The position numbers were made by a program. Below, piece by piece: positions 31,301 through 34,300 of a stretch of 64,000 bases of DNA (positions are counted from its first letter, which is position 1; each line of letters begins with the position of its first letter). This DNA is from Escherichia coli (GTDB taxonomy: Bacteria > Pseudomonadota > Gammaproteobacteria > Enterobacterales > Enterobacteriaceae). The stretch lies in assembly GCF_003334785.1 (NCBI RefSeq), contig NZ_QOWV01000017.1; one strand, given 5' to 3'.

Positions 31301-34300
31301 GTTTTACGCGCGGTGGCGATTAGATCAGCTTTATTCAGCCGCGGCCAGACGTGCTCCTGGGTGGTTTGCTGAAAATCGTCGAACTTTAATTTCACCCCCT
31401 GGCGAGCAATCAGTAAATCAGGTTTTACCTTTGCCAGACGGCGTTCAAGTTCCGGATACAGCCGCTCGATAATCGCTTCACATTCAGACCAGTGATGAAT
31501 ATCTTCCGCCATCGTGCGTTCCACGCCGACGGATTTTCGCAACCGTTCGCTGTTAACATCGCGTTCGTCAATCCCCTGACTACGCTCCCACAAAATGCGG
31601 CCAAATTTGCCAAAGCGTTTAAGCAGCATCACCAGATCACACTTTTGTACATCACCGCAGGTCCGCAGCCCCATCGCTTCCAGTTTTGCCGCTGAGACTT
31701 TGCCGACGCCGGGGATTTTTGCCAGCGGTAAGGTTTGTAAAAATGCCGGAACTTCTGCCGGCGTAATCACAAACTGGCCGTTGGGTTTATTCATGTCGGA
31801 GGCGATTTTGGCGAGAAACTTTACTGGTGCCACGCCCGCAGACGCCGTCAGTTGCAGCTCGTTGAAGATTGTCTGGCGGATTTCCTGGGCGATGAGGGTC
31901 GCAGAACCGTGGCAATGGACGCTATCGGTGACATCGAGATAAGCCTCATCCAGTGACAACGGTTCAATGCGCGAGGTGTAGCGCGAGAAGATTTCACGGA
32001 TATGATTTGAGGCTTCTTTGTAGGCGTCAAAGCGCCCCGGAAGCAAGGTGAGATGTGGGCATAATTTGAGCGCCATCCCTGTCGGCATAGCGCTACGTAC
32101 GCCAAATTTACGCGCGGGATAATTGGCGGTGCTGATCACCCCCCGACGTTCGCGGCTGCCGCCAATAGCAATAGGGATATCGCGCAGGGCGGGATTGTCG
32201 CGCATCTCCACTGCGGCGAAAAAGCAGTCCATATCCACATGAATGATTTTACGCATTGCTCACCTCTCAACACTGGTAAAGTATACAGTGATTTCAGGGT
32301 TTGAGAAATGCGTAAAGATTCAGCATTTAACGCGTTCGCTGCGAAAGCACCTGCTGCTTATCCAGCTTTTGCACCAGCGGCTGCACCACTTTATCCCCAT
32401 GCTGACCAAAGTATTGATACAGCGTATCGGACGCACTTTTGGTCAGCACCATAATCTCAATGCGCCGGTTGCCCGCGCTTTGCGGATTTTTGGAATCCAG
32501 CAGCATCTGGTCCGCCATTGCGCTTACCTGCATCACTTTATCTTCCGGCATTCCGGCCTCTTCCAGCACCCGACGAGCCGAAAGCGCGCGGTCACCCGAA
32601 AGGTTCCAGTTGTTGTAGATATTGTTTTTGTAGGCCATCGCATCGGTATGCCCGGTAATAATAATTTTATTATCGAGCGAGTCGAACACTGGCGCGAGCT
32701 CCACCAGCAGCGTTTTAAAGAACGGCATAATCTTCGCGCTGCCGCGTTCAAACATATTGCGGTTCTGGTCGTCTTTAATCAGCACGCGTAATCCCTGGGG
32801 AACAATCTCCATCTCCAGATTCGCTTCCATATGCGCATCACGGGCAATGGTGTTGATACTGGTTGCCAGCTCACCAAGCTCGGTGGCGGATTTCTTCTTC
32901 AGCAGCGCCGTTTTCTCATTCACATCACGCGCTTTTTTCTCCGTCTCTTCCGGCACCGCCACGGTGGCAGGTTTTGGCGGATGAGACGGGCTGATTTTAT
33001 TTAACGGCGACAGCCCACCACCGTTAAAAATCGACTGCCCGTGCAGCGCGGCGATAATGCTTTCACGCTCGGATTTACTGACGCTGTTGACAATCAACTT
33101 TATTGTCGTCACCAAAGGGGCCGAGCGTATTTCCGAGGTTTCTGCCCGCTTTACCTTAGACGCGATGCCCGGCAAACAGATGGCGATTGACGCCGATCTT
33201 AACGCCGGATTGATCAACCAGGCGCAGGCGCAAACCCGGCGTAAAGATGTTGCCAGCGAGGCCGATTTCTACGGCGCGATGGACGGGGCATCGAAGTTTG
33301 TGCGCGGGGACGCCATCGCCGGGATGATGATTCTGGCGATCAACCTGATCGGCGGCGTCTGTATCGGGATCTTCAAATACAACCTGAGCGCCGATGCTGC
33401 CTTCCAGCAGTATGTGCTGATGACCATCGGCGACGGCCTGGTGGCGCAGATCCCTTCCCTGCTGCTCTCCACCGCGGCGGCGATTATCGTCACCCGCGTC
33501 AGCGACAACGGCGATATCGCCCATGACGTGCGTAACCAGCTGCTGGCAAGCCCGTCGGTGCTCTACACCGCCACCGGGATTATGTTCGTGCTGGCGGTGG
33601 TACCGGGAATGCCGCACCTGCCGTTTTTGCTGTTCAGCGCCCTGCTTGGTTTTACCGGCTGGCGGATGAGCAAACAGCCGCTGGCGGCGGAGGCGGAAGA
33701 GAAAAGCCTCGAAACGCTGACCCGCACCATCACCGAAACCAGCGAGCAGCAGGTCAGTTGGGAAACCATTCCGCTGATCGAGCCTATCAGTTTAAGCCTC
33801 GGTTACAAACTGGTGGCGCTGGTGGACAAAGCACAGGGTAACCCGCTCACCCAGCGGATTCGCGGCGTGCGGCAGGTGATTTCTGACGGCAACGGCGTGC
33901 TGCTGCCGGAGATCCGCATTCGGGAAAACTTCCGCCTTAAGCCCAGTCAGTACGCCATTTTCATCAACGGCATAAAGGCTGATGAAGCGGATATTCCGGC
34001 GGATAAACTGATGGCCCTGCCCTCCAGCGAAACCTACGGCGAGATTGACGGCGTGCAGGGGAACGACCCGGCGTACGGGATGCCGGTCACCTGGATCCAG
34101 GCGGCGCAGAAAGCGAAGGCGCTGAATATGGGGTATCAGGTGATCGACAGCGCCAGCGTGATCGCTACCCATGTAAATAAGATTGTGCGCAGCTATATTC
34201 CTGATTTGTTTAACTATGATGATATTACGCAGTTGCATAACCGTTTATCGTCGACGGCACCGCGTCTGGCGGAAGATTTGAGCGCGGCGCTCAATTACAG

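What the first reader, a model, noticed from the sequence alone, without database searches (positions are those of the whole stretch)
33057..33217. Flag-2 lateral flagellar locus reduced to two overlapping head-to-head fragments
An N-terminally truncated FlhA homolog (plus strand) and a MotB/OmpA-like C-terminal fragment (minus strand) overlap by about 160 bp with no promoter region between them. This is the signature of a large internal deletion that removed the intervening secondary flagellar gene cluster. The same scar is known in K-12; its presence here places this strain in a lineage sharing that ancient deletion.
Basis: partly seen in the sequence, partly recalled or inferred. Interest (0 to 1): 0.4.

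Follow-up and report, generated by a model that had tools for sequence, protein, structure and literature searches.

The report
Known Flag-2 flagellar deletion scar
This is the well-known scar left in most E. coli when a 35-kb second flagellar gene cluster was cut out, leaving two dead gene ends back to back. The unexpected part is that the identical cut point also occurs in four other genera, and the leftover pieces show no decay.

Summary
Window 32327-33095 (-) is the 3' part of lafU (MotB-like stator). Window 33093-34796 (+) is the 3' part of lfhA (FlhA-like export gate). These are the fhiA/mbhA pair described for K-12 by Ren et al. 2005.

Alignment to intact Flag-2 loci puts the junction at a 3-bp microhomology, ATC, at 33093-33095. 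The deletion removed 35.6 kb: 40 whole genes, 130 codons of lfhA and about 52 codons of lafU. The "160-bp overlap" is not a gene overlap. Each frame simply stays open into the antisense of the other remnant.

The same junction is in 4086 of 5426 complete E. coli genomes, so it does not define a lineage. Scar alleles interleave with intact alleles and have no stops or indels. Their dN/dS is 0.03-0.04, the same as for functional copies.

I also found the same nucleotide junction on genus-specific sequence in E. albertii, Citrobacter, Kluyvera, Atlantibacter and a Dryocola-like strain. In each case I examined (E. coli, K. ascorbata, A. hermannii) the same species also carries an intact allele.

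Two readings remain open: one old deletion allele kept "fresh" by recombination with intact copies, or a recurrent site-directed deletion. Both breakpoints lie in rare palindromes.

The parts
32327..33095 (-). lafU' remnant. It holds codons 53-307 of the 307-codon lateral-flagellar MotB-like stator gene, its stop codon, and 2 nt of codon 52. It lacks the transmembrane helix, the conserved Asp and the plug.
   Evidence: NCBIfam NF005273 LafU at E 3.1e-143. Window 29771-33095, which includes lafU', is 100% identical to intact 1332KP (3325 bp), ending at 33095. The intact LafU sequence is shown. Truncated forms lack PF13677.
33093..33095 (.). Deletion junction. ATC is the 3-bp microhomology shared by both parental sequences.
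   Evidence: Three-way alignments with intact NC101 and 1332KP loci.
33093..34796 (+). lfhA' remnant. It holds codons 131-697 of the 697-codon FlhA paralogue plus the stop. It lacks the first 130 codons (N-terminal membrane segments) and its operon promoter.
   Evidence: TIGR01398 FlhA, profile 114-677 of 678, below the curated cutoff. Alignment to intact lfhA starts at codon 131. PGAP flags it as a pseudogene 'missing N-terminus'.
33057..33092 (+). Spurious 12-codon N-terminal extension of the plus ORF (MLSRSDLLTLLT), read from the antisense of lafU'.
   Evidence: The ATG at 33057 is ATA in the Kluyvera scar, so the start is not conserved.
33096..33217 (-). Spurious 41-codon N-terminal extension of the minus ORF, read from the antisense of lfhA'. 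It contains the GTG at 33112 that PGAP uses as the lafU start.
33084..33095 (+). Retained left copy of the imperfect direct repeat CTGTTGACAATC(CAC). Its partner in intact lfhA is CTGATGATCATC(AAC). They match at 11 of 15 positions.
   Evidence: My estimate, not a tool result, is that about 200 equally good pairs are expected between the two genes, so the repeat is not special.
33079..33095 (+). Retained left arm (TGACGCTGT, 33079-33087) and loop (TGACAATC, 33088-33095) of a hairpin with a 9-bp perfect stem. In intact lafU this hairpin spans the left breakpoint. The right arm, ACAGCGTCA, was deleted.
   Evidence: The hairpin is also present in intact lafU of C. farmeri, A. subterraneus and A. 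hermannii. It is weaker in K. ascorbata.

Best explanation
This is the classical Flag-2 deletion scar, the lfhA'/lafU' pair formerly called fhiA/mbhA.

In strains with the intact locus, lfhA is the last gene of the lfiMNPQR-lfhBA operon at one end of the cluster. lafU is the last gene of the lafTU motor operon at the other end. Both are transcribed outward. One illegitimate recombination joined a point 390 nt into lfhA to a point 155 nt into lafU, at a 3-bp microhomology (ATC) inside an 11/15 imperfect direct repeat. That event removed 35.6 kb: 40 complete genes, both promoters and both 5' ends.

What remains is two promoterless 3' gene ends placed head to head. LafU' has lost its membrane helix, proton-binding Asp and plug. 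LfhA' has lost its first 130 residues. Neither can build a flagellar motor or export gate, so the locus is inert here (inference from domain content).

The 161-bp ORF overlap arises only because each frame happens to stay open in the antisense of the other remnant.

On origin (inference, about 50% confidence): the junction is a single old null allele that coexists with the intact allele in E. coli and related genera. The remnants stay undecayed because they keep recombining with functional copies in the same species.
For: Identity of the fragments.

Breakpoints and size. The left flank is 100% identical over 3325 bp up to 33095. The deletion is 35,582 bp relative to 1332KP and about 37.25 kb relative to NC101.

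Gene content of the lost segment.

Loss of the TM, Asp and plug: one search gives the sequence. In one search, PF13677 is present in the 307-aa forms and absent from the 261-aa forms.

Frequency: 4072 of 5426 genomes hold the contiguous 2.5-kb scar. 4086 of 5426 hold the junction itself. 1318 genomes carry the undeleted breakpoint sequences and none carries a reciprocal junction.

[quoted passage not shown] PMC6993521 describes a deletion within lfhA and lafU, with direct repeats at the ends, in 76 of 100 E. coli. PMC1940028 reports that fhiA/mbhA overlap in K-12, O157, CFT073 and S. flexneri.

For the origin sub-claim:
- Scar and intact alleles share haplotypes.
- The scar was found in genera of the Escherichia/Citrobacter/Kluyvera/Atlantibacter/Dryocola group. 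It was not found among Enterobacter, Pseudescherichia, Siccibacter or Hafnia hits, even though the breakpoint motifs are conserved there.
- In every species where I looked for both alleles, both were present.
Against: Nothing argues against the identification as the Flag-2 scar.

Several points count against the single-origin sub-claim:
- The flanks are genus-specific to within 1-6 bp of the junction in five genera.
- Between-genus scar-to-scar comparisons have dS of 1.0-1.4 with dN/dS of 0.03-0.06 and open 567-codon frames.
- A single origin therefore requires either a polymorphism that has persisted across genera or inter-genus transfer, followed by homogenisation of the flanks right up to the heterology boundary.
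- Spontaneous native null mutations should be far commoner than either of those.

Against 'inert': both remnant frames are open in 9 of 9 E. coli scar alleles.
Confidence: 0.9

Rival explanations
1. Recurrent, site-directed deletion. The same two positions in lafU and lfhA are joined again and again, independently in each species, by a structure- or enzyme-directed mechanism. The scar would then be young wherever it is seen. Candidate mechanisms are breakage or template switching at the palindromes, or an HUH-type nickase or relaxase acting at a hairpin loop and terminating at a secondary ATC site.
For: The junction is identical on native sequence in E. coli, E. albertii, K. ascorbata, C. amalonaticus, two further Citrobacter-like metagenome contigs, A. 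hermannii and strain H11S18.

Within species, scar and intact alleles are 98.6-100% identical up to the junction.

Remnants show no relaxed selection.

Every N-terminally truncated LafU retrieved starts with the same junction peptide..KL|IVNS.

The left breakpoint lies in the loop of a hairpin with a 9-bp stem. Such hairpins cover 0.32% of positions in the 39.2-kb locus. The right breakpoint lies inside the 12-bp perfect palindrome TGATGATCATCA, a class that covers 0.88% of positions.
Against: No known mechanism gives base-precise deletion over 35 kb with only 2-3 bp of microhomology. The 11/15 direct repeat is not special.

rayT, the nearby HUH transposase gene, is absent from the Kluyvera, Citrobacter and Atlantibacter loci.

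No scar was seen among Enterobacter, Pseudescherichia, Siccibacter or Hafnia hits, although the amino-acid motifs at both breakpoints are conserved there.

The left hairpin is weakened in K. ascorbata.

The palindrome coincidence was noticed after the fact.
Confidence: 0.3
2. The two remnants are not dead. After an old deletion, the truncated LfhA' (C-terminal cytoplasmic domain plus the last membrane segments) and LafU' (peptidoglycan-binding domain) were kept as working genes under direct purifying selection.
For: Frames are open in E. coli (9 of 9), Kluyvera, C. amalonaticus, A. hermannii and H11S18.

dN/dS is 0.03-0.06 between scar alleles of different genera.

There is a weak sigma-70-like site on the plus strand at 33031-33058.
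Against: No start codon is conserved. ATG 33057 is ATA in Kluyvera, and gene callers use different starts in different genera.

Both natural promoters were deleted.

LafU' has no signal or TM segment to reach the periplasm.

The E. albertii type strain has a 22-bp frameshifting deletion in lfhA' and a shortened LafU', yet the same low dN/dS. The low ratio therefore does not need function.

Private changes in scar allele AF18 run 5 nonsynonymous codon changes to 1 synonymous.
Confidence: 0.07
3. A genuine pair of divergently transcribed genes whose coding regions overlap by about 160 bp.
For: Both ORFs are open across 33057-33217. The pair has been listed as 'overlapping genes' in a database paper (PMC1940028).
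Against: In each ORF the overlapping part is the antisense of the other gene's conserved coding sequence. It has no homology to FlhA or LafU proteins. Intact loci show that the sequences on either side of 33093-33095 come from places 35 kb apart.
Confidence: 0.02

Closest known systems
E. coli K-12 lfhA (fhiA, b0229) / lafU (mbhA, b0230) pseudogene pair, the Flag-2 deletion scar of Ren, Beatson, Parkhill & Pallen, J Bacteriol 2005
   Same: Same genes, same neighbours (dinB on one side, rayT-yafL on the other) and the same junction. K-12 MG1655 matches the 100-bp junction probe at 100% (H42).
   Different: Nothing at the locus differs. The window's 25-kb surroundings are matched at 100% by several non-laboratory phylogroup-A-like isolates, so the strain need not be K-12 itself.
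Intact Flag-2 cluster of E. coli (042, W, NC101, 1332KP, O111)
   Same: The remnants are the outermost genes of this cluster. They are 94-100% identical in DNA to the corresponding parts of intact loci.
   Different: The window lacks the 35.6-kb interior, which holds 40 genes for the basal body, hook, flagellin LafA, sigma factors and stator LafT, plus the 5' ends of lfhA and lafU.
Lateral flagellar (laf) systems of Vibrio parahaemolyticus and Aeromonas hydrophila
   Same: Flag-2 is the enterobacterial counterpart, with the same gene set and naming (PMC3032704, PMC6993521).
   Different: Those systems are complete and shown to work. Here only two non-functional fragments remain.
lfhA-lafU en bloc deletions reported across Enterobacterales (De Maayer et al. 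2020, PMC6993521)
   Same: That paper reports truncated lfhA and lafU copies in 531 of 4028 strains, mostly in taxa that also have complete loci, including Citrobacter. I see the same pattern.
   Different: As far as I could read, the paper does not state two things shown here. First, the junction is the same nucleotide position in different genera. Second, the remnants evolve like functional genes.

Membership tests
Flag-2 lfhA'/lafU' deletion scar | 3' fragment of lafU and 3' fragment of lfhA lie adjacent and divergent, with no intergenic DNA | tested here: met
Flag-2 lfhA'/lafU' deletion scar | Junction identical to that of K-12 | tested here: met
   The 100-bp junction probe is 100% identical in K-12 MG1655 and contiguous in 4086 genomes.
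Flag-2 lfhA'/lafU' deletion scar | The Flag-2 genes lying between lfhA and lafU in intact strains are absent | tested here: met
   35,582 bp holding 40 CDS are present in 1332KP and absent here.
Flag-2 lfhA'/lafU' deletion scar | Chromosomal position between dinB and yafL | tested here: met
   PGAP table of an identical record. ORFs for dinB, rayT and yafL are in the window.
FlhA / FHIPEP export-gate protein (functional member) | Full-length protein of about 690 aa including the N-terminal membrane domain | tested here: not met
   Only profile positions 114-677 of 678 are matched, at 597 bits against a curated cutoff of 772. 130 codons are missing relative to the 697-aa intact LfhA.
FlhA / FHIPEP export-gate protein (functional member) | C-terminal cytoplasmic domain present | tested here: met
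   The profile is matched through to position 677. The frame is open to the natural stop.
MotB/LafU stator subunit (functional member) | N-terminal transmembrane helix with the conserved Asp and plug (PF13677) | tested here: not met
   Residues 1-52, including AWKVAFADFTLAMMALFMTLW, are deleted. PF13677 is absent from the 261-aa forms and present in the 307-aa forms.
MotB/LafU stator subunit (functional member) | C-terminal OmpA-like peptidoglycan-binding domain (PF00691) | tested here: met
   OmpA-type and MotB models hit residues ~90-266. PF00691 is recorded for P0021.
Genuinely overlapping divergent gene pair | The overlapping segment is conserved coding sequence of both genes, with conserved start codons | tested here: not met
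   In each ORF the overlap is antisense to the other remnant. ATG 33057 is not conserved in Kluyvera.
Site-specific or HUH-type excision site | Recombinase or nickase gene in the locus, plus defined recognition hairpins at both ends | tested here: inconclusive
   Palindromes lie at both breakpoints. No recombinase gene is present in 1332KP's Flag-2. rayT is absent from the other genera's loci. Activity cannot be tested here.

The most novel reading that the evidence does not exclude
The lfhA-lafU junction is a hot spot for precise deletion, not a relic of one event. The same two nucleotide positions, each inside a rare palindrome in conserved membrane-helix coding sequence, would then be joined repeatedly and independently. 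This would have happened in Escherichia, Citrobacter, Kluyvera, Atlantibacter and Dryocola-like bacteria, giving an off-switch that removes a 35-40-kb flagellar system cleanly. The alternative that also fits the data is nearly as unusual: one null allele that has coexisted with the functional allele across genus boundaries, with its gene fragments kept intact only by recombination with working copies.
Probability: 0.3. Interest if true: 0.7.

Novelty: already known. Interest (0 to 1): 0.3.

Why it matters
For the window itself it matters little. The locus is a textbook pseudogene pair of K-12 and is correctly flagged by standard annotation.

The wider pattern found while checking it is worth a follow-up. 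The deletion junction is identical to the base in at least five genera. In every species examined it segregates alongside the intact cluster. The 'dead' fragments evolve like living genes.

If the deletion is recurrent, it points to an undescribed, sequence-directed way of shedding a large surface-structure locus. If it is one old allele, it is a clear case of pseudogene fragments being protected from decay by recombination with functional alleles. It would also be a presence/absence polymorphism that outlives species.

In either case the scar should not be used as a clade marker.

Tried and rejected
- Ren et al. 2005 (PMC545627) is not held in the library. Its content is cited only through PMC3032704 and PMC6993521.
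- RayT as the agent of excision. The gene sits next to lfhA' in the window. It is missing from the Kluyvera, Citrobacter and Atlantibacter scar loci, and hicAB replaces it in some E. coli. I rejected it as a general cause.
- Microhomology as a sufficient cause. The repeat matches at only 3 bp perfectly, 11 of 15 overall. I estimate about 200 equally good pairs between lafU and lfhA by chance, so I rejected it as an explanation for recurrence.
- Reciprocal product. A probe for lfhA 5' fused to lafU 5' was not found in any of 5426 genomes.
- Using near-junction SNPs to exclude a single origin. I abandoned this. Conversion tracts can end exactly at a heterology boundary, so sharing of SNPs 9-70 bp from the junction is not decisive.
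- A 'scar-only' species to test direct selection on the remnants. A. hermannii turned out to be polymorphic as well, so the test could not be made.
- Promoter scan. It gave only 9/12 consensus matches, which is not evidence of expression.
- Intact Kluyvera lfhA. None appeared among the listed hits, so the right-hand deleted side was checked only in E. coli, Citrobacter and one unnamed lineage.
- One regex search for junctions failed and was replaced by direct printing.
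Full report
**What is at the coordinates**

The window carries two long ORFs that face away from each other: 33057..34796 (+, 579 aa) and 32327..33217 (-, 296 aa). Mechanically they overlap at 33057-33217.

The plus ORF matches the FlhA equivalog TIGR01398 at E 3.8e-179. The match covers only profile positions 114-677 of 678, and its 597 bits fall below the curated cutoff of 772. The minus ORF matches the LafU equivalog NF005273 (E 3.1e-143, profile 41-297) and, more weakly, MotB and OmpA-type models.

The neighbours are dinB-yafN-yafO-yafP on the left and rayT-yafL on the right. 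In a record identical to the window, PGAP annotates lafU at window 32327-33112 and an FlhA pseudogene, 'incomplete; missing N-terminus', at 33078-34796.

**Mapping the breakpoints**

I aligned the window to two E. coli chromosomes that still carry the whole cluster, NC101 (L001) and 1332KP (L003).
- Homology to the lafU side runs up to window 33095. Homology to the lfhA side starts at 33093 in perfect register, or at 33084 if mismatches are allowed.
- The junction is ...GCTGTTGACAATC|AACTTTATT..., with ATC (33093-33095) present in both parents.
- Relative to 1332KP the missing segment is 35,582 bp. Relative to NC101 it is about 37.25 kb, from the coordinates.
- The segment holds 40 complete genes: lfhB, lfiRQPNM, lafK, lfiEFGHIJ, lfgNMABCDEFGHIJKL, lafWZABCDEFST and a few cargo genes.
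- It also removed the first 390 nt (130 codons) of lfhA and the first 155 nt of lafU.

Both genes are the last genes of outward-reading operons. That is why what remains is two promoterless 3' ends placed head to head.

**Consequences for the two products**

Intact LafU is 307 aa. The deleted residues 1-52 contain AWKVAFADFTLAMMALFMTLW, the single membrane helix carrying the Asp that corresponds to MotB Asp32 (my knowledge of MotB). The truncated forms have also lost the PF13677 plug domain.

Intact LfhA is 697 aa. The remnant starts at residue 131, inside the membrane domain. Neither fragment can do the job of its family. This follows from domain content and was not tested experimentally.

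**The '160-bp overlap'**

This is an ORF-calling artefact. Codons 1-12 of the plus ORF (33057-33092) are read from the antisense of lafU'. Codons 1-41 of the minus ORF (33096-33217) are read from the antisense of lfhA'. Neither stretch is homologous to FlhA or LafU. The ATG at 33057 is not conserved in the Kluyvera scar. The real remnants share 3 bp.

**Already known**

The scar is the fhiA/mbhA (lfhA/lafU) pseudogene pair of K-12. PMC3032704 states that in K-12 and B only these two terminal remnants are left. PMC6993521 summarises Ren et al. [quoted passage not shown]

In the 5426 complete E. coli genomes available here:
- The contiguous 2.5-kb scar is in 4072.
- The 100-bp junction probe is contiguous in 4086, including K-12 MG1655 at 100%.
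- The undeleted breakpoint sequences are in 1318, and no genome has the reciprocal junction.

The window's 25-kb surroundings are 100% identical to several field isolates. The strain is therefore K-12-like (phylogroup-A type) but not necessarily K-12.

**Does the scar mark a lineage that shares an ancient deletion?**

The evidence says no. I compared nine scar alleles spread over the identity range (the window plus L004-L011) with six intact alleles.
- Scar alleles differ from one another at up to 110 of 1704 sites in lfhA' and 32 of 768 in lafU'. None has an indel or an internal stop.
- Nei-Gojobori dN/dS among scar alleles is 0.033 for lfhA' and 0.040 for lafU'. Among intact alleles it is 0.034.
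- Scar alleles do not cluster together. The window differs from intact 1332KP at 8 sites in lfhA' and 0 in lafU', with 3325 bp of identical left flank up to the junction. Scar HY220605 differs from intact O111 at 1 site. Scar alleles differ from each other at up to 110 sites.
- Variable sites shared by scar and intact alleles begin 9 bp to the right (33104) and 68 bp to the left (33026) of the junction.
- Private changes are mixed. AF18 has 5 nonsynonymous codon changes to 1 synonymous, while 3-72 has 0 to 7.

**Beyond E. coli**

An exact 22-mer spanning the junction hit the type strain of E. albertii. That locus is 92% identical to the window across the junction. Its lfhA' carries a 22-bp frameshifting deletion, yet K-12 versus E. 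albertii gives dS 0.26 and dN/dS 0.045 for lfhA'.

Protein searches then showed N-terminally truncated LafU proteins in Citrobacter, Kluyvera, Atlantibacter hermannii and strain H11S18 (Dryocola-like). All begin with the same junction-encoded peptide, (V/M)TTIKL|IVNS....

At the DNA level the junction is at the same nucleotide position on genus-specific sequence:
- E. coli: GACAATC|AACTTT
- K. ascorbata: TTAACAATC|AACTTC
- C. amalonaticus: CACAATT|AAC
- A. hermannii: GACGATT|AACTTC
- H11S18: AACGATC|AACTTT
- Two further Citrobacter-like metagenome contigs carry the same junction position.

The 567-codon lfhA' frame is open in all of these. Between-genus scar-to-scar comparisons have dS of 1.0-1.4 and dN/dS of 0.03-0.06.

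Within species the scar and the intact allele are nearly identical up to the junction: 98.6% over 3835 bp in K. ascorbata and 99.07% over 3325 bp in A. hermannii. A. hermannii carries both a 277-aa and a 329-aa LafU in one 90% cluster.

No such truncated form appeared among Enterobacter, Pseudescherichia, Siccibacter or Hafnia hits, although the amino-acid motifs at both breakpoints are conserved there. This is absence from two top-120 lists, not an exhaustive survey.

**How to read this**

A deletion that was ancient and then decayed neutrally is excluded by the open frames and the low dN/dS. Three readings remain.

(a) One old null allele that coexists with the intact allele in each species. 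It would persist either by descent through speciation or by rare transfer among relatives. Its flanks would be continually overwritten from functional copies. Because heteroduplex can extend to the heterology boundary, even SNPs a few bp from the junction can be homogenised. Selection acting in the intact background would then keep the shared gene pool clean. The confinement to related genera fits this reading, and so does the fact that every species I checked holds both alleles.

(b) Recurrent, site-directed deletion. The base-exact junction on native sequence in five genera fits this reading. So does the near absence of other junctions. So does the position of both breakpoints in rare palindromes: the left lies in the loop of a hairpin with a 9-bp stem (TGACGCTGT-TGACAATCC-ACAGCGTCA, a class covering 0.32% of positions in the 39.2-kb locus), and the right lies inside TGATGATCATCA (0.88% of positions). 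Against it, no known mechanism does this. The direct repeat is ordinary. rayT is absent from the other genera's loci. The coincidence was also noticed after the fact.

(c) The remnants are working genes. I consider this unlikely. No start codon is conserved, both promoters are gone, and the frameshifted E. albertii copy has the same low dN/dS.

I put (a) at about 0.5, (b) at about 0.3 and (c) below 0.1. The palindromes can also explain where a single original break occurred, so they do not decide between (a) and (b).

**Verdict**

The finding is a correct recognition of a known feature. Two details are wrong: the size of the overlap and the lineage inference. As a feature of this window it is ordinary. 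The cross-genus identity of the junction and the undecayed state of the fragments are the only parts that deserve further work.

Noticed in passing
window ~28952-29675 (-): There is a second deletion scar 3.4 kb away. An RtcB-family fragment (missing its C-terminus, ~29469-29675) abuts a prfH fragment (missing its N-terminus, ~28952-29458). Complete rtcB and prfH genes follow dinB in C. farmeri (L023).
   Followed up: partly
window 32273-32288: The SOS (LexA) box CTGGTAAAGTATACAG, of form CTG-N10-CAG, lies between the lafU' stop (32327) and the dinB start (32256). lafU' therefore ends just upstream of the dinB promoter region.
   Followed up: no
window 34799-35000 and 35613-35696: REP/BIME-type repeats flank rayT (35020-35517, -). 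There are two tandem 101-nt units downstream of lfhA', and an 84-nt unit is repeated on the other side of rayT.
   Followed up: partly
window 34797-35692; L007, L009, L012, L015, L019, L022, L030: The slot between the 3' end of lfhA and yafL is a variable cargo site. It holds rayT in the window, rayT with an internal stop in O157, hicA-hicB in O111, HY220605 and LD93-1, and small unknown ORFs in Kluyvera and Citrobacter.
   Followed up: no
L003 (1332KP), window-equivalent 29771-29779: An IS1 is inserted between yafP and the rtcB fragment in the intact-Flag-2 strain 1332KP. The two flanking alignments overlap by 9 bp, which is the target duplication.
   Followed up: no
L017 (SFGJ01000062.1) and L018 (JAIJJM010000815.1): Contigs 95-99.9% identical to E. 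coli lfhA', with the junction, are filed in MAGs named Clostridiales bacterium and Collinsella sp. This is almost certainly binning contamination.
   Followed up: partly
L016 (E. albertii NBRC 107761), window-equivalent 34026-34047: The E. albertii scar has a 22-bp frameshifting deletion in lfhA' and a shortened LafU' (P0047). It is the only clearly decayed scar allele I saw.
   Followed up: yes
L001 (NC101) 42235-47644: NC101 carries a ~5.6-kb insert between lafU and dinB. It holds two recombinase-family genes, an HTH protein and a phage baseplate fragment.
   Followed up: no
window 33089-33094 and 33102-33107: The deletion created a small perfect inverted repeat, GACAAT / ATTGTC, separated by 7 nt across the junction. 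It exists because both parental genes encode Ile-Val with the same codons on opposite strands.
   Followed up: no
P0022 (398 aa), P0048 (357 aa), P0049 (429 aa), P0153 (849 aa): Some E. coli records carry longer chimeric ORFs at this locus. P0022, for example, is LafU' extended far into the antisense of lfhA. P0048 and P0049 are LafU-like proteins with only 77% query coverage and may mark other, rarer rearrangements.
   Followed up: no
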